Source: Minisyncoccota bacterium
Lineage (GTDB): Bacteria > Patescibacteriota > Minisyncoccia > Phycocordibacterales > JBAYGS01
NCBI GenBank assembly: GCA_041666545.1
Contig: JBAYGS010000002.1
Span: forward strand, 106,395 to 170,394
DNA length: 64,000 nucleotides
Reading direction: 5' to 3'
Shown: in pieces, positions 13,868 to 62,790 of the stretch
How the letters are laid out: the number at the start of each line of letters is the position of its first letter
Numbering within the stretch: the first letter of the stretch is position 1
Program-made: the position numbers and the translations under genes
The notes under the pieces: generated by a model
What the model saw: the letters and a program-made list of their open reading frames with translations, nothing else
Database searches by the model: none
What the model was told of the DNA's origin: nothing

Positions 13868-13908
13868 TCCCGACGTCAGAAGTCGGGATCCCGACCGAAG
13901 CGTTGGGG
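13868..13908 (+). repeat. composite GC-rich double-hairpin element (copy 1 of 4)
   Basis: TCCCGACGTCAGAAGTCGGGA + TCCCGACCGAAGCGTTGGGG. Related copies at 58277-58328, 61297-61347 and 62741-62790, each adjacent to GTAGT-type repeats. Confidence 0.5.
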
Positions 13909-13925
13909 CTAACTACTCACTTCTT

Positions 13926-14204
13926 ATGAATCCCGACGAAAAACAAATGCTCCGCGATATTGCCGAGCAGGTGGCCGAGAATAATAAACTTCTGCATAAG
14001 CTTTATAGCAAGGCCAGATGGGGGACAGTTGTCAGGGCCGCGTACTGGCTCGTGATTATCGGTCTATCGGTGGGGTCGTATTACTTCATCCAGCCCTATG
14101 TAAACCAGTTGATGGGTGTCTATAGTGGTTTAGGTGCGGATGTTGGCACTGTAAAAAGCGTGGCCGGTGGAGCGACTGATTTGTTGAAAAATCTCGGCAG
14201 ATAG
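13926..14204 (+). CDS. hypothetical membrane protein (92 aa)
   Basis: Single central TM helix. No recognisable motif. Confidence 0.3.
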   Translation: MNPDEKQMLRDIAEQVAENNKLLHKLYSKARWGTVVRAAYWLVIIGLSVGSYYFIQPYVNQLMGVYSGLGADVGTVKSVAGGATDLLKNLGR

Positions 14205-14239
14205 GCTAAACTCTCTAGGTCTGGGTCTGCCAGATAAAT

Positions 14240-14315
14240 GCCGAGATAGCTCAGTTGGTAGAGCATTCCCCTGAAGAGGGAAGGGTCCCCAGTTCGAACC
14301 TGGGTCTCGGCACCA
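14240..14315 (+). tRNA. tRNA-Phe (anticodon GAA), CCA encoded
   Basis: GCCGAGATAGCTCAGTTGGTAGAGC...TTCCC-CTGAAGA-GGGAA...GGGTCCCCAGTTCGAACCTGGGTCTCGGCACCA gives a canonical cloverleaf. Confidence 0.9.
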
Positions 14316-14326
14316 AAATATTAAAA

Positions 14327-14362
14327 CAAAACCAAAACCGCCCTAGGGCGGTTTTGGTTTGG
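14327..14362. terminator. bidirectional intrinsic terminator
   Basis: AAAACCAAAACCGCCCTAGGGCGGTTTTGGTTTGG lies between tRNA-Phe (+) and the hsp20 gene (-). Confidence 0.65.
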
Positions 14363-14363
14363 C

Positions 14364-14822
14364 TTATGAATTTGATTTGACCCGGAGTTTGGTTTGCTTG
14401 CCTTTGTCAATCTTCGGCAGACGAATCGTAAGGAGGCCGTGTTTCTCGGAAGCATCGGCTTCGTCGGCTTGGACCTCGGCCGGTAGGAGAATGGTCCTAG
14501 AAAATGAGCCCCAATAGAGTTCCTTGACGAAATAATCCTCGTCAGCTACCTCGTGGGTTTCTTCACGGGTGCCTTTGATTGTCACCATATCTCTGGTGAT
14601 GGAAATATCGAGGTCTTCCGGTTTGACTCCGGCGACCATGGCCTTGACGATAATTTCATTGGGGGTCTGATGGACATCAACTGTCAGCTGGCCGACATCG
14701 CCACCTTCCTCCAGCCAATTTTCACCTTTTTCCTCAATCTCGGAGCCGGCATCGTCATTCATCGCCTTCTCATCAAGTCGAATAGTACCGGTTAATTTTT
14801 CAAAAAAAGATCTCTTGGCCAT
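14364..14822 (-). CDS. Hsp20/alpha-crystallin family small heat-shock protein
   Basis: Alpha-crystallin domain (TVDVHQTPNEIIVKAMVAGVKPEDLDISI...TIKG). Confidence 0.8.
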   Translation of the reverse strand: MAKRSFFEKLTGTIRLDEKAMNDDAGSEIEEKGENWLEEGGDVGQLTVDVHQTPNEIIVKAMVAGVKPEDLDISITRDMVTIKGTREETHEVADEDYFVKELYWGSFSRTILLPAEVQADEADASEKHGLLTIRLPKIDKGKQTKLRVKSNS

Positions 14823-14827
14823 ATGAT

Positions 14828-15517
14828 TTAATTTTTAAACTTGCTAATGGTTTTTACTTTTTCAAAGATTAGGATAAGTAGAATTATCGTCATCCAAACG
14901 ACTGAAAAGACGGCAATTACTTTCTCATTACTTACATCTATTATAAAAGAGTTGAAGAGGGTGTGCAATGTAATGGCGAGGACAACCCCGAGAATAAGGA
15001 ACCAGTTCTTTATCTTTCGACTGCGGTAGTAGACCAAGGCCATGGAGGCGCCCAAAATCCCTGAGGTGCAGACATGGAGCAAGCTGGCGCCTACAAAGCG
15101 GAGGTTTCCGGAGATTAAGGAACCAATAATGTCGCCTTTCAATAGTGGGGTGATGATGAACAGGGTATTTTCCAAGGCGGCAAAGCCTAGGGCGGCGGTG
15201 ATGAGGTAGATCATTGGGTCGAGCGGTTCGTCGCAGTGTTTACTTTCTAAGCAGAAAGCGGCGGCAACAAATTTGAGCATTTCCTCGATTGTGGCCCAGA
15301 TTATGATAGTCATGAGCAATGAGAGGCGATAATCAGAGACCTGGCTCTCCAGCCAGCCGGCGACTGGCACCACAATCATACCGGCCAAAAAAGCCGACAG
15401 GAGCATGCCTCGCGGTTCGGGGTGAAGGCGGTCTTCTCTAATCCAAAACCAGAGCCAGAAAAGTGCCGGTAGAATCCCGCCCAGCATTGCCCAAATTATA
15501 GTGTTGATAGAAAACAT
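14828..15517 (-). CDS. PrsW-like intramembrane protease family protein
   Basis: Polytopic. Conserved EEMLKF and ALGFAALEN motifs as in PrsW (pfam13367). Confidence 0.5.
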   Translation of the reverse strand: MFSINTIIWAMLGGILPALFWLWFWIREDRLHPEPRGMLLSAFLAGMIVVPVAGWLESQVSDYRLSLLMTIIIWATIEEMLKFVAAAFCLESKHCDEPLDPMIYLITAALGFAALENTLFIITPLLKGDIIGSLISGNLRFVGASLLHVCTSGILGASMALVYYRSRKIKNWFLILGVVLAITLHTLFNSFIIDVSNEKVIAVFSVVWMTIILLILIFEKVKTISKFKN

Positions 15518-60758: not shown

Positions 60759-60838
60759 AAACCGCCCCTCACTTGCGAGCAAGTGGGGGGTTTTAAATTT
60801 AAAAGCCCCGCGCATGTTGCATGCGCGGGGCGAAGTCG

Positions 60839-61177
60839 TCAGCCGATTTTGCTGGCGTAGGTCGAAGGATTAGGGTCCGGATTTTTTCGGTCGAATTCGG
60901 CGCCGGCCTTTTGCATGAAATCCAATTTGGCGAGATTGTGCATCTGTTTCTTGATTTGACGGTCGGCATCGACACGCCGGAGTCTCTCAAACTCCCTCTT
61001 TGTTCGGAATTTTTCTGCTCGGATTTTTTTGGCGAGAGCTTTCGGCAGAGTTTGCCCGGTCTCGAGTACGGATTTCACTCTGGCCAGTAGGTCTTCCAGG
61101 AATTCCGAGCGACACTCGGGATGCCAAGGCGTAGTAGTCATTCTTTCGCAGTAAGGACAGGGTCTGATACAAGCCAT
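60839..61177 (-). CDS. hypothetical CxxC protein (112 aa)
   Basis: CIRPCPYCE...C cysteine cluster and a basic helical C-terminus. Terminator GCCCCGCGCATGTTGCATGCGCGGGGC downstream on the minus strand. Confidence 0.3.
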   Translation of the reverse strand: MACIRPCPYCERMTTTPWHPECRSEFLEDLLARVKSVLETGQTLPKALAKKIRAEKFRTKREFERLRRVDADRQIKKQMHNLAKLDFMQKAGAEFDRKNPDPNPSTYASKIG

Positions 61178-61235
61178 AATTTTCCTTTCTCTTCTCGGCT
61201 TAGATTACATCTTTAAATTAGTTTGTCAATCAAAA

Positions 61236-61262
61236 CCCCCGCTCGTTTCGAGCGGGGGTTTT
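61236..61262. terminator. bidirectional terminator (CCCCCGCTCGTTTCGAGCGGGGG)
   Basis: GC hairpin between an A-run and a T-run, downstream of rpsA (minus). Confidence 0.6.
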
Positions 61263-61296
61263 GTCTTATTCTCCACTACTTACTACTACCTACTAA

Positions 61297-61347
61297 TCCT
61301 GACGTCAGAAGTCGGGACCCCGACCTTTGTAAGACAAAGCGTCGGGG
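61297..61347 (-). repeat. composite double-hairpin element (copy 3, inverted) flanked by GTAGT repeats
   Basis: TGACGTCAGAAGTCGGGA + CCCCGACCTTTGTAAGACAAAGCGTCGGGG, with CTACTTACTAC tracts on both sides (61273-61296 and 61348-61362). Confidence 0.6.
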
Positions 61348-61354
61348 CTACTTA

Positions 61355-62572
61355 CTACTTAGTCGCCTCAACAAAAGACAGCGCCATCTTCTGCTCCTTG
61401 GCATCAAAGAGGGCAATCTTGAATGAGTAGGTTTTGCCGAGCTCCAATTTCTCGCGCAACTTTTCTTCACTGCCAAATTCGCTCACATGGACCAAACCGG
61501 CCACACCCTCTTCAATTGAGGCGAGAGCGCCATGCTTGTTGAATTTGATGACCACGCCCTTGACCAGCTGATCTTTCTTGTATTTCTTGCCGGCCTCAAT
61601 CCAAGGGTTCGGCTTCAGGGCCTTGATGGAGAGGGAAATTTTGCCATCTTTGACATCGATGACTTTGACGCGGATTTTGTCGCCGACTTTGTAAAGCAAT
61701 TTTGGATTTTCAACCAGCGCCCAATCCATTTCGCTGATGTGGACCAAACCTTCGAGACCGTCTTCAACTTTCACGAAGACTCCGAAATCAACGATGCCGG
61801 TGACTTCGCCATCCAAAACATCGCCAATCGTGTATTTCTCGACAATTTTTTCCTTTTCCTTCTGTTCAGGATTTTTCTCGGAGAAAATCAGCTTGCCTTC
61901 TTTAGGGTTGGCGCCGATAATCGCGACGGCAATTTTCTGGCCGAGCAATTTTTTCAATTCTTCCAAAATTCGGTCCTTGTCGCCATCCTCAACGCGAGGG
62001 TAGTGCTCTGGCTTCAACTGGGAAGCCGGCAAGAAACCGGAGATGCCTTGCCATTCCAAAATCAAACCGCCTTTGTTGGCCTCTTTGACTGGCAATTCGA
62101 AAATAGTTTTCGAGGCGATAGCCGCTTCGGCTTCGCTCCAAACAATCGCTTGGCGAGCTTCCTTGAGGGAAAGTTCCCAATAACCTTCTTCGTGGTCGGT
62201 GCCGACAACCTTGGCCGCGATGACATCGCCGACATTGATTTTTTTAATGATTTCTCGGGCAACGATAAATTCCCGGCCGTAAATGATACCGGTTCCGTAC
62301 GGAGCGAGGTCGACATAGACGGAAGCTTTTTCGATGGCAATCACCGGACCTTCAACCAAGTCGCCAACTGATGGCGGGTTCTTGGTTTCGGACATCAACT
62401 TGCCCATCAAGCTCTGCTTCTTTTGGCGGGCTTCTTTTTCTTCGTTGGTTTCCTCGACTTTATCTTTTTCTTTAATTTCTTTGGTGGCCTTCTTGGCCTC
62501 CTTGGTTTCTACAACTTCTTCGGCCACTTTGACTTCATCAGTCTTGGCCGACTTTCTGCTAAAAATTCCCAT
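61355..62572 (-). CDS. rpsA: 30S ribosomal protein S1 (four S1 domains)
   Basis: Repeated S1 OB-fold modules (GxV.G.V..I..FG.FV) and a Lys/Glu-rich N-terminus. Confidence 0.8.
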   Translation of the reverse strand: MGIFSRKSAKTDEVKVAEEVVETKEAKKATKEIKEKDKVEETNEEKEARQKKQSLMGKLMSETKNPPSVGDLVEGPVIAIEKASVYVDLAPYGTGIIYGREFIVAREIIKKINVGDVIAAKVVGTDHEEGYWELSLKEARQAIVWSEAEAAIASKTIFELPVKEANKGGLILEWQGISGFLPASQLKPEHYPRVEDGDKDRILEELKKLLGQKIAVAIIGANPKEGKLIFSEKNPEQKEKEKIVEKYTIGDVLDGEVTGIVDFGVFVKVEDGLEGLVHISEMDWALVENPKLLYKVGDKIRVKVIDVKDGKISLSIKALKPNPWIEAGKKYKKDQLVKGVVIKFNKHGALASIEEGVAGLVHVSEFGSEEKLREKLELGKTYSFKIALFDAKEQKMALSFVEATK

Positions 62573-62682
62573 ATATTTAAAAAGCCGGCAGGTTTCGCTA
62601 CTCGTGGACTGAATGATCCCTAAGCGAGGTTACTTGCCAGTACTTCTAATAATGGGAGAGAGTATACCTGAGGAAGGGGAAA

Positions 62683-62790
62683 TAGTAAATAGATAGTAGT
62701 TAGTAGTAAGTAGGTAGTAGTCAGTAGTGAAGAAGATAAAAGCCCCGACGCTTTGTCTGACAAAGGTCGGGGCGGGGTCGGGGACAGGGT
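62683..62790 (+). repeat. GTAGT repeat tract + composite hairpin element (copy 4) upstream of rpsA
   Basis: AATAGATAGTAGTTAGTAGTAAGTAGGTAGTAGTCAGTAGTG ... CCCCGACGCTTTGTCTGACAAAGGTCGGGGCGGGGTCGGGG. Confidence 0.6.

What the first reader, a model, noticed from the sequence alone, without database searches (positions are those of the whole stretch)
13868..62790. Four copies of a composite GC-rich double-hairpin element, each physically linked to GTAGT repeats
The module CCCCGACGCTTTGTCAGACAAAGGTCGGGG (a hairpin with an inner CTTTG/CAAAG stem) plus TCCCGACTTCTGACGTCGGGA (a second hairpin) occurs at 13868-13908, 58277-58328, 61297-61347 (inverted) and 62741-62790. Each copy abuts a GTAGT tract, and the copies bracket rpsA and follow pth. 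The element is GC-rich in an AT-rich genome and strongly structured. The copies are about 85-95% identical, which fits a REP/MITE-like mobile or regulatory RNA element, not independent terminators.
Basis: seen in the sequence. Interest (0 to 1): 0.55.

Follow-up and report, generated by a model that had tools for sequence, protein, structure and literature searches.

The report
Mobile double-hairpin element of CPR bacteria
The repeated GC-rich double hairpins are real copies of a small selfish DNA element found across the ultra-small "CPR" bacteria; elsewhere it sits beside a tiny nuclease gene at tRNA genes and also inserts, in frame, into essential genes.

Summary
The window (a Candidatus Paceibacterota contig) holds five copies, not four, of a 41-52 nt element "E". 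E is two abutting hairpins, YCCCGAC-G-[stem-loop]-GTCGGGR and its inverted counterpart.

- Two copies are complete (58277-58327, 61297-61347).
- One is a short form (13868-13908).
- One has a decayed second hairpin (62743-62795).

E is not a local oddity. A loose pattern found at least 120 loci in many CPR lineages and in Omnitrophota. The inner stems covary and a conserved ..AG precedes the element. E also occurs as exact in-frame insertions in DnaK, UvrB and MetK.

Relatives of this genome with 79-95% identical RpsA lack E at the same sites, so these copies are recent insertions. No target duplication is seen.

In other genomes E lies 6-64 nt upstream of a small (~86 aa, range 83-117) GIY-YIG (UPF0213-like) nuclease gene, wedged between a duplicated tRNA 5' fragment and the intact tRNA. 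At least two core hairpins occur there in 58 of 79 loci and in 0 of 61 controls. That nuclease is the likely mobiliser, which is inferred, not shown.

The GTAGT tracts are a feature of this genome. They supply TAG target sites and are not part of E. No published description was found.

The parts
5919..5970 (+). E0: element copy inside the RNase P RNA gene (CTCCGACGCCCGAAAGGGTACGGAG + TCCCGACCGCCGTAAGGCGCGTCGGGG), preceded by GCAG
   Evidence: cmsearch with model R1: 40.0 bits, E=1.4e-7. The Rfam RNaseP_bact_a alignment shows 74 nt where the model has a 7-nt hairpin loop. Sequence. The A stem carries one compensatory pair change.
13868..13908 (-). E1: short-form copy. On the - strand it reads TTAG|CCCCAACGCTTCGGTCGGGA TCCCGACTTCTGACGTCGGGA|TTATTAG. 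It lies between a promoter-like TATAAT and the ATG of ORF 13926-14204.
   Evidence: 44.6 bits on +, 37.9 on -; the element is quasi-palindromic, and the - orientation has the family's ..AG flank. Folds.
58277..58327 (+). E2: complete copy starting directly after the TAG stop codon of pth (57680-58276), upstream of the conserved terminator hairpin at 58381-58417
   Evidence: cmsearch 50.2 bits. Relative L126 has the same stop region and terminator but no element.
61297..61347 (-). E3: complete copy 7 nt after the rpsA stop codon (rpsA 61355-62572, - strand), upstream of the conserved terminator at 61231-61263
   Evidence: cmsearch 49.9 bits. Four relatives with 79-95% identical RpsA lack it but keep the terminator.
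62743..62795 (+). E4: intact hairpin A (62743-62772) plus a decayed hairpin B. On the - strand the hairpin is followed by CTTTTATCTT and lies after ORF 62802-63023, so it is probably used as that gene's terminator.
   Evidence: cmsearch 21.6 bits. Relative L123 has an ordinary terminator, CCCCGCGCTTGACACCCAAGCGCGGGGCTTTTTATCT, at the same place.
58329..58352 (+). GTAGTNN heptamer tract abutting E2. This is target context, not part of the element. Similar tracts lie at 13792-13808, 61275-61296 (-) and 62690-62731.
   Evidence: No period-7 enrichment next to the element in other genomes.

Best explanation
The sites are five copies of a small non-autonomous mobile DNA element, E, that is widespread in Patescibacteria/CPR and also present in Omnitrophota genome bins.

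**Anatomy.** E is a tail-to-tail doublet of one hairpin type.
- Hairpin A is YCCCGAC, a bulged G, a variable stem-loop, then GTCGGGR.
- Hairpin B is the same thing inverted, with a bulged C on the 3' side.
- The core CCGAC...GTCGG is invariant. Everything else keeps its pairing but not its sequence.

**Insertion.** E inserts precisely 3' of an HAG trinucleotide (often GTAG, TTAG or TCAG) without target-site duplication. It is found in intergenic DNA, in structured-RNA genes and, in frame, in protein genes.

**In this genome.** The insertions are recent. They landed in stop-codon or GTAG-rich heptamer spacers (E1-E4) and in RNase P RNA (E0). E2 and E3 are passengers in 3' untranslated regions, upstream of the genes' real terminators. 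E4's surviving hairpin has probably been co-opted as a terminator.

**Mobilisation (inferred, not shown).** E is mobilised in trans by a small UPF0213-like GIY-YIG nuclease. In other genomes its gene lies immediately downstream of an E copy, in cassettes of the form [tRNA 5' fragment]-E-[GIY-YIG ORF]-[intact tRNA]. The nuclease presumably recognises the hairpin core in single-stranded or extruded DNA.
For: **A real, dispersed family**
- The pattern CCCCGACN{8,20}GTCGGGGTCCCGAC found at least 120 genome loci; the scan stopped at its cap. My estimate of the chance expectation is about 3.5.
- 115 of 122 matches also carry the 3' arm GTCGGGR, which the pattern did not ask for.

**Structure is selected**
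- 98.2% of cells pair.
- Inner pairs covary (for example CG 25, GC 17, UA 6, AU 4). The covariation score is 0.160 against 0.049 in shuffles, with 0 of 500 shuffles reaching it.
- The outer two pairs also covary: AGCCGAC/GTCGGCT, GGCCGAC/GTCGGCC, CTCCGAC/GTCGGAG.

**Target and precision**
- Position -2 is A in 98 of 115 copies, and position -1 is G in 85 of 115.
- In DnaK, 119 of the 120 closest homologues read ..FNKK|KNEKIAV... The E-bearing one reads ..YGKK[PRRPDGVGVPTKASG]KNEKIAV... That is an exact 45-nt insertion with no duplication.

**Coding insertions**
- Length is a multiple of 3 in 63 of 115 copies, against 38 expected.
- 37 of 115 copies are read through in long ORFs with at least 50 codons on each side, a few of them spurious.
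- Pfam confirms HSP70, MetK and UvrB as hosts.

**Recent insertion in this genome**
- No hit with the covariance model in 28 kb from four relatives.
- The orthologous rpsA and pth spacers are empty, with conserved terminators.

**GIY-YIG link**
- A GIY-YIG ORF lies within 8 kb of E in 15 of 120 E-seeded loci, and starts 5-25 nt after E in at least 7 of them.
- The reciprocal test used 80 metagenome loci fetched by the protein alone. A strict doublet ends 6-64 nt upstream of the start codon in 43 of 79.
- At least two core hairpins lie in the upstream 130 nt in 58 of 79 loci, against 0 of 61 control stretches.
- A tRNA follows the ORF in 59 of 80 loci.
- The 9 nt left of E match that tRNA's 5' part in 39 of 57 loci.
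- The window's B hairpin (loop TTCTGAC) is identical to the one next to GIY-YIG genes in L056, L150 and L161.
Against: - No GIY-YIG homologue was found in the 82 kb of this contig that could be read. Mobilisation in this genome would need a gene elsewhere, or it is extinct.
- No biochemical link between the nuclease and E exists. Adjacency could equally mean that the nuclease gene homes next to E.
- How a 45-nt hairpin doublet is inserted without duplication is unknown.
- The tandem duplication of tRNA 5' fragments around E (X-E-Y'...X-Y) is not explained by any simple transposition model.
- Covariation does not tell a DNA-level constraint from an RNA-level one.
- Copy number per genome looks low, mostly 1-5 strict matches per genome bin.
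Confidence: 0.75

Rival explanations
1. E is a REP/REPIN in the strict sense: a palindrome recognised and spread by a RAYT, a Y1 HUH transposase domesticated in the host genome.
For: - A conserved 5' flank abuts the hairpin and often reads GTAG, as in REPs.
- The doublet is inverted, like a REPIN or BIME.
- There is no target duplication.
Against: - In 120 E-seeded 8-kb loci the one recurrent small neighbour set beside E was the GIY-YIG family, and no transposase-like cluster appeared among the 25 largest.
- E occurs inside coding sequences and RNA genes, unlike extragenic REPs.
- The flank consensus is KHAG, not a fixed GTAG.
- Whole genomes were not scanned for Y1 transposases.
Confidence: 0.1
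2. E spreads by some other route, and the GIY-YIG gene is a free-standing homing endonuclease that merely targets or lands next to E or the tRNA D-loop region. The adjacency would then reflect the nuclease's homing site, not E's mobiliser.
For: - The orientation and spacing between E and the ORF are fixed.
- The ORF also exists without E in about 9 of 79 loci.
- Solo E copies far outnumber cassettes.
- T4 SegB is a GIY-YIG homing endonuclease located in a tRNA gene cluster (PMC2330249, abstract).
Against: - In the cassettes the intact tRNA, which would be the presumed target, is still present downstream. This is atypical for homing, where insertion destroys the site.
- This rival leaves E's own mobility unexplained.
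Confidence: 0.2
3. The hairpins are primarily functional RNA structures (3' stabilisers, terminators or regulators) kept by selection at each site, not mobile DNA.
For: - E2 and E3 lie in the sense orientation in 3' untranslated regions.
- E4 occupies a terminator position.
- Folds are stable and stems covary.
Against: - The element is absent from the orthologous sites of close relatives.
- The same element sits in DnaK, UvrB, MetK, RNase P RNA and tRNA fragments, in both orientations.
- E2 and E3 have no U-tract, and separate conserved terminators lie 50-60 nt downstream.
- No Rfam family matches.
Confidence: 0.05
4. Chance similarity of independent local terminators.
For: None beyond their GC-rich hairpin nature.
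Against: - Zero matches are expected in shuffles.
- The 80-nt arms are 90% identical.
- The family was found in at least 120 other loci.
Confidence: 0.01

Closest known systems
REP / BIME / REPIN elements of proteobacteria (with RAYT transposases)
   Same: - Short imperfect palindromes with a conserved 5' flank that often reads GTAG, directly abutting the stem.
- They occur as inverted doublets, without target duplication.
- They are often downstream of genes and are sometimes co-opted as terminators or stabilisers.
   Different: - No RAYT link was found. The linked gene is a GIY-YIG nuclease.
- E also lies inside coding sequences and RNA genes.
- The two hairpins abut with no spacer, and their loops are not complementary to each other.
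- The same core is conserved across whole phyla.
Rickettsia palindromic elements (RPE)
   Same: Palindromic selfish DNA in a reduced genome that inserts in frame into unrelated essential protein genes and into RNA genes (PMC10969869, section 4.2, for the protein-gene insertions).
   Different: - RPEs are about 100-150 bp and confined to Rickettsia. E is 41-75 nt and spread across CPR lineages.
- No sequence similarity was tested.
- No mobilising enzyme is known for RPEs.
Double-hairpin elements (DHE) of chytrid and fission-yeast mitochondria; GC-rich palindromes flanking tRNA genes in Neurospora mitochondria
   Same: - Two adjacent GC-rich hairpins in an element of a few dozen nucleotides.
- Found in intergenic regions and in rRNA genes.
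- Sequences are near-identical across species.
- No flanking duplications.
- Sources: PMC10085805 (mitogenome section); PMC2800124 (discussion and reference list).
- From my own memory: in Allomyces, DHEs lie near an inserted endonuclease ORF that carries a duplicated gene end.
   Different: - Different compartment and lineage.
- Homology was not tested.
- No GIY-YIG/tRNA cassette of the kind seen here is documented in the papers read.
IS200/IS605 family and its hairpin-only derivatives (PATEs)
   Same: Insertion 3' of a short specific motif without duplication, with recognition of DNA hairpins presumably as single strands (from my own knowledge of the family).
   Different: - IS200/IS605 ends are two similar hairpins in the same orientation, flanking a Y1 transposase gene.
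- E's hairpins are mutually inverted and abut each other, and no Y1 gene was seen.
Free-standing GIY-YIG homing endonucleases such as T4 SegB; UPF0213 proteins (BH0048, EF2693)
   Same: - A small GIY-YIG ORF set among tRNA genes (PMC2330249, abstract).
- The ORF family matches Pfam GIY-YIG (E 1e-12 to 1e-16).
- Its closest solved structures are UPF0213 proteins (1zg2, E=5.9e-11).
   Different: - The ORF has about 86 residues with no separate DNA-binding domain.
- It is always preceded by a double hairpin set in a duplicated tRNA 5' fragment.
- UPF0213 proteins have no assigned function.

Membership tests
REP/REPIN-RAYT | Imperfect palindrome with a conserved GTAG (or GTGG) tetranucleotide at its 5' end | tested here: inconclusive
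   The flank consensus is KHAG: -4 is T 44 / G 40, -3 is T/A/C, -2 is A in 98 of 115, -1 is G in 85 of 115. Only a subset reads GTAG.
REP/REPIN-RAYT | Linked to a RAYT (Y1 HUH transposase) gene, typically flanked by the repeats | tested here: not met
   Clustering of 1876 ORFs from 120 E-seeded loci gave no transposase-like cluster among the 25 largest. The one recurrent small neighbour set beside E is a GIY-YIG family. Whole genomes were not scanned.
REP/REPIN-RAYT | Extragenic location | tested here: not met
   In-frame copies in HSP70, MetK and UvrB, and a copy in RNase P RNA.
Classical MITE (deletion derivative of an IS) | Terminal inverted repeats | tested here: met
   The 5' arm CCCGACGC and the 3' arm GCGTCGGG are complementary.
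Classical MITE (deletion derivative of an IS) | Target-site duplication | tested here: not met
   Comparing the filled DnaK site with the empty one shows an exact 45-nt insertion. The flank profiles share no common bases.
Classical MITE (deletion derivative of an IS) | Parent element with the same ends around a transposase gene | tested here: not met
   E lies on only one side of the GIY-YIG ORF, and the other side is a tRNA gene.
Rickettsia palindromic elements | In-frame insertion into unrelated protein genes without stop codons | tested here: met
Rickettsia palindromic elements | Sequence homology to RPE families | not tested
   No RPE sequences were at hand. Size (41-75 nt against about 100-150 nt) and host lineage differ.
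Mitochondrial double-hairpin elements | Two adjacent GC-rich hairpins in a short element, found in intergenic and structural-RNA genes, with no flanking duplication | tested here: met
   The family definition is taken from PMC10085805 and PMC2800124.
Mitochondrial double-hairpin elements | Common descent or sequence similarity | not tested
   No DHE sequences were available in the tools.
IS200/IS605-type hairpin elements | Insertion 3' of a short motif without duplication | tested here: met
   HAG flank; no duplication.
IS200/IS605-type hairpin elements | Two like-oriented subterminal hairpins and a Y1 TnpA | tested here: not met
   The hairpins are mirror images: bulged G on the 5' side in A, bulged C on the 3' side in B. 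No Y1 gene was seen.
Intrinsic terminators | GC-rich hairpin followed directly by a U-tract at a gene end | tested here: not met
   E2, E3 and E1 have no T-run. Separate terminators lie at 58381-58417 and 61231-61263. Only E4 on the - strand has CTTTTATCTT and a terminator position.
Rfam RNA families | Match to a curated covariance model | tested here: not met
   There are no hits on the elements at gathering thresholds. At E<=10 nothing specific to E2 appears: the better-scoring hits sit on the neighbouring terminator, and only a few weak, long sub-threshold alignments overlap it.

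The most novel reading that the evidence does not exclude
E and the UPF0213-like GIY-YIG gene together form a bacterial mobile-element class that I could not find described.
- A minimal, single-domain GIY-YIG nuclease recognises a double hairpin with a CCGAC/GTCGG core in single-stranded or extruded DNA.
- It places the hairpin 3' of HAG without duplication.
- tRNA-gene D-loop DNA is its home site, where insertion is accompanied by duplication of the tRNA 5' part.
- Solo doublets act as its MITE-like offspring, colonising essential protein genes and RNase P RNA across CPR bacteria.

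This would give the orphan UPF0213 family a function.
Probability: 0.35. Interest if true: 0.85.

Novelty: new variant of a known kind. Interest (0 to 1): 0.68.

Why it matters
CPR/Patescibacteria have tiny, streamlined genomes. Finding the same selfish double hairpin across many of their lineages, tolerated inside DnaK, UvrB, MetK, RNase P RNA and next to tRNA genes, says something about how such genomes evolve and exchange DNA.

- The tight link to a minimal GIY-YIG nuclease offers a directly testable function for the uncharacterised UPF0213 family.
- The same link suggests a possible new way of mobilising hairpin DNA.
- E probably breaks short-read assemblies, confuses tRNA and gene callers, and adds about 15 residues to annotated proteins. 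A covariance model for it would therefore improve annotation of CPR genome bins.
- For this window, it explains the repeats without invoking regulation.

Tried and rejected
- **Rfam.** At gathering thresholds and at E<=10 on E2 no family matches the element. The weak hits fall on the neighbouring terminator.
- **Viral contigs.** Three hits from one sample are the same GC-rich coding stretch without the B 3' arm. They are chance matches, so E was not found in IMG/VR.
- **Composite transposon bounded by E2 and E3.** Rejected for three reasons:
  - The interval contains ORF 60839-61177, which is conserved at that place in relatives.
  - It holds two paralogous membrane-protein genes and no transposase.
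  - The inverted arrangement follows from two sense-oriented insertions behind convergent genes.
- **GIY-YIG gene on this contig.** jackhmmer against all stop-to-stop ORFs of the window and L001 found none. A 10-kb extension to the left holds no E and no GIY-YIG gene.
- **GTAGT tracts as part of the element.** Rejected. There is no period-7 enrichment beside 111 copies elsewhere, and relatives carry other heptamers at the same spots without E.
- **E preferentially abutting stop codons.** Only 2 of 122 copies do.
- **Target-site duplication.** None.
- **Intron-like removal at the RNA level.** Disfavoured by the excess of lengths divisible by three and by stop-free read-through.
- **Actinomycete hits of the pattern (L014, L049).** These lack the B 3' arm and are chance matches in GC-rich genes.
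- **Literature.** Searches on CPR with palindromic elements, MITEs, GIY-YIG with tRNA, and UPF0213 found no description of this element. The library is incomplete.

Full report
**1. What is at the coordinates**

- Hairpin A occurs at 58277-58306, 61318-61347 (-) and 62743-62772.
- Hairpin B occurs at 13868-13888 (-), 58307-58327 and 61297-61317 (-).
- Shuffled sequence gives no matches.
- The two complete copies sit in 80-nt arms that are 90% complementary.

The window is 42-50% GC over most of its length, so it is not AT-rich.

It is part of a 194-kb metagenome contig (ENA ERZ27249449, k141_1294488). NCBI names the RpsA protein's source as Candidatus Paceibacterota, a lineage of the Candidate Phyla Radiation (CPR).

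**2. Anatomy**

I call the element E. Each hairpin has a 7-bp outer stem, CCCCGAC/GTCGGGG in A and TCCCGAC/GTCGGGA in B.
- In A the stem is followed by a bulged G and an inner stem-loop.
- In B the inner part comes first and a bulged C sits on the 3' side.
- B is therefore the inverted form of the A type, and E is a tail-to-tail doublet with no spacer.

The window copies fold this way both as RNA and as single-stranded DNA, with z-scores of -3.6 to -4.9 for the complete copies.

**3. The family outside the window**

I scanned one genome per prokaryotic species for CCCCGACN{8,20}GTCGGGGTCCCGAC.
My estimate of the chance expectation is about 3.5.
- The loci come from Nomura-, Zambryski-, Kaiser-, Yanofsky-, Wolfe- and Saccharibacteria, unclassified Patescibacteria, and Omnitrophota.
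- In 115 of 122 matches the 3' arm of hairpin B follows, although the pattern did not ask for it.
- The inner parts differ in sequence and length but keep their pairing.

I aligned 57 short copies.
- 98.2% of cells pair.
- The three inner pairs of A and the inner pair of B show many double changes.
- The covariation score is 0.160 against 0.049 in shuffles, with 0 of 500 shuffles reaching it. It collapses when partners are slid by one to three columns.
- Further copies show compensated changes in the outer two pairs as well. Only CCGAC...GTCGG stays invariant.

**4. More copies in the window**

A covariance model built from those foreign copies was run over the window without filters.
- It recovered the two complete copies at 50.2 and 49.9 bits.
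- It scored 13864-13911 at 44.6 bits on the + strand and 37.9 on the - strand.
- It scored 62739-62786 at 21.6 bits.
- It found a new site at 5915-5973, at 40.0 bits and E=1.4e-7.

The new site lies inside the RNase P RNA gene, which is 457 nt against a 367-position model. The Rfam alignment shows 74 nt there, where the model has a 7-nt loop.

The copy at 13868-13908 is a complete short form, not a truncation. The copy at 62743 has an intact A and a rearranged B that ends in GTCAGGA.

**5. Insertion site and precision**

- The base at -2 is A in 98 of 115 copies, the base at -1 is G in 85, and the base at -3 is almost never G. The right flank is not conserved.
- No direct repeat flanks E.
- The clearest case is DnaK in locus L108. 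Of the 120 closest homologues (84-89% identical), 119 read AYG-FNKK|KNEKIAV-FD.
- The E-bearing gene reads YGKK[PRRPDGVGVPTKASG]KNEKIAV, an exact 15-codon insertion. One other homologue has a 13-codon version.

**6. Coding and RNA-gene insertions**

- Lengths are multiples of three in 63 of 115 copies, against 38 expected.
- 37 of 115 copies are read through by long ORFs with at least 50 codons on each side, a few of them spurious. Most are in the orientation that yields ..VGVPT.ASG.
- Pfam confirms the hosts HSP70, S-adenosylmethionine synthetase and UvrB.
- By eye, the others look like CarB, RecG, LeuRS and DNA polymerase I (my own reading).

**7. The window copies are recent insertions**

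I fetched four relatives whose RpsA is 95, 91, 85 and 79% identical. The model finds no E in any of them.
- *Downstream of rpsA.* All keep the same terminator (AAAACCCCCGCTCG..CGAGCGGGGGTTTT). The stretch between stop codon and terminator differs, and only the window has E3.
- *Downstream of pth.* Relative L126 keeps the stop region and the orthologous terminator but has neither E2 nor GTAGT tracts.
- *Upstream of rpsA.* Relative L123 has an ordinary terminator exactly where the window has E4's hairpin, which on the - strand is followed by CTTTTATCTT. E4 has therefore most likely been taken over as a terminator.

E2, E3 and E4 share the inner stem CTTTGTC/GACAAAG, so they are copies of one another.

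**8. The GTAGT tracts**

- They flank E1-E4, but they are common throughout this genome's spacers: 23 GTAGTNNGTAGT against 0.02 expected, and most lie away from any E copy.
- Relatives carry different heptamers at the same spots without E.
- Beside 111 copies in other genomes, period-7 tracts are no more frequent than at random positions.
- I conclude that the tracts offer many (G/T)TAG target sites in dispensable DNA and are not part of E. Why this lineage has such tracts remains open.

**9. tRNA genes**

About 20 of the 122 foreign copies lie in a tRNA 5' fragment, after TAG, CTCAG or GGTAG of the D-loop region. The fragment continues for 5-10 nt after E. An intact copy of the same tRNA follows 10-60 nt downstream, giving the arrangement X-E-Y'...X-Y. 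Some loci show two or three such nested events (L098, L056).

**10. The GIY-YIG gene**

*Starting from E.* I clustered all ORFs of the E-seeded loci.
- The one recurrent small family set beside E was an ORF of about 86 aa beginning MA(F/Y/W)VYIL..G.YY(I/V)GST.
- A GIY-YIG ORF lies within 8 kb of E in 15 of the 120 loci.
- It matches Pfam GIY-YIG (E 1e-12 to 1e-16).
- Among solved structures it matches the UPF0213 proteins BH0048 and EF2693.
- In at least seven loci it starts 5-25 nt after E. Its stop codon abuts or overlaps the intact tRNA.

*Starting from the protein.* As a reciprocal test I fetched 80 metagenome loci using the protein alone.
- A strictly defined doublet ends 6-64 nt upstream of the start codon, on the same strand, in 43 of 79 loci.
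- At least two core hairpins lie in the upstream 130 nt in 58 of 79 loci, and at least one in 70 of 79. Control stretches 670-800 nt upstream give 0 of 61.
- A tRNA gene follows the ORF in 59 of 80 loci. These include Asn, Val, Thr, Phe, Met, Lys, Ile, Arg, Ala, Pro and His.
- The 9 nt left of E match that tRNA's 5' part in 39 of 57 loci.
- The window's B hairpin, with loop TTCTGAC, is identical to the one in cassettes L056, L150 and L161.

**11. Interpretation**

*Shown:*
- E is a structured, dispersed, insertion-polymorphic element with a defined target dinucleotide and no duplication.
- It is tightly associated with a small GIY-YIG nuclease gene at tRNA genes.

*Inferred:*
- The nuclease mobilises E.
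- The solo copies in this window are its non-autonomous offspring.
- Recognition is of the hairpin core in single-stranded or extruded DNA.

*Not explained:*
- How insertion works chemically.
- How the tRNA 5' duplication arises.

No GIY-YIG homologue lies in the 82 kb of the contig I could read.

**12. Comparison with known systems**

- E works like REP/REPIN elements and like Rickettsia palindromic elements. It fails the REP membership tests for RAYT linkage and extragenic location.
- It is not a classical MITE, because it has no target duplication and no parent insertion sequence.
- In form and behaviour it most resembles the double-hairpin elements of fungal mitochondria (PMC10085805, PMC2800124).
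- A GIY-YIG homing endonuclease inside a tRNA cluster has a precedent in T4 SegB (PMC2330249).
- A 2024 review of prokaryotic MITEs mentions neither Patescibacteria nor GIY-YIG (PMC10969869).
- A 2026 survey of tRNA-gene introns in Patescibacteria does not describe this element.
- I found no description of it. The library lacks most subscription journals, so prior description cannot be excluded.

**13. Verdict**

- Corrections: there are five copies, not four. Two of the four reported are incomplete or variant. The GTAGT link is local to this genome. The genome is not AT-rich.
- New: the family spans many CPR lineages, inserts into essential genes and RNase P RNA, and is linked to a GIY-YIG gene.

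Noticed in passing
window 13792-13808, 15532-15559, 15595-15613(-), 17640-17683, 20310-20348, 20555-20580, 33310-33342(-), 52879-52917; 51584-51700; 1708-1778; 5218-5254: Heptamer tandem tracts are abundant in the spacers of this genome: GTAGTNN, plus GTATAAG, AAGGTAT and a 14-mer array TATCTACTTACTAC x8.4. Relatives carry different heptamers (TAGCTTA-like) at the same positions. Three strong tracts fall inside mechanically called long ORFs, which suggests those ORFs are over-extended. Origin and function are unknown.
   Followed up: partly
window 6351-6433, 25406-25446(-), 45612-45663(-), 63169-63254; L126 11300-11560: A second intergenic repeat family, TATTCGTGTGCCCTATTCGTAAGGGTTCTTAAC (about 41 nt). 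It occurs singly or in pairs in the window and as an 8-unit tandem array downstream of the rpsA terminator in a 79%-identity relative.
   Followed up: no
window 20851-20891, 33804-33844, 34109-34149, 44840-44880; 43855-43913 and 45090-45148; 39935-39991 and 41762-41818: Three further small repeat families:
- the palindrome ATTCTAGCTTTTTGCAAAAAGCTAGAATAGAGA;
- a 59-nt hairpin repeat containing GAACGGCTCATTTAACGGTTAAATGAGCCGTTC;
- a 57-nt repeat that ends at ATG start codons.
   Followed up: no
window 33347-33395 and 33538-33610: A 49-nt, 94% identical copy of the 5' two-thirds of tRNA-Glu lies 189 nt upstream of the intact tRNA-Glu. Unrelated GC-rich sequence lies between them and there is no E. 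The layout is the same kind of tRNA 5' duplication seen around E/GIY-YIG cassettes elsewhere.
   Followed up: partly
window 13584-13656 and 13765-13786: The last 20 nt of tRNA-Arg (TCAATTCTGGCCGAGGGCAC) are repeated about 110 nt downstream of the gene. This looks like the att-site relic of an excised or decayed integrated element. It lies just upstream of the GTAGT tract and E1.
   Followed up: no
L210 4066-7804 (2-6 kb to the left of the window start): A serine recombinase (Recombinase + Zn_ribbon_recom) sits next to DUF2326, MC6/MC7 and CTD10 domain genes. This is probably an integrated island with conflict or defence genes.
   Followed up: no
window 58515-59519 and 59592-60758: Two paralogous predicted membrane proteins with no Pfam match lie between pth and rpsA. 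They are absent from the 79%-identity relative L126, which has a different 120-aa ORF there.
   Followed up: partly
L055 646-760; L092; L098; L056 2238-2442: In other genomes E occurs as nested or tandem partial copies, and as several successive insertions into repeated 5' fragments of one tRNA. Variant B stems occur (AGCCGAC/GTCGGCT).
   Followed up: partly
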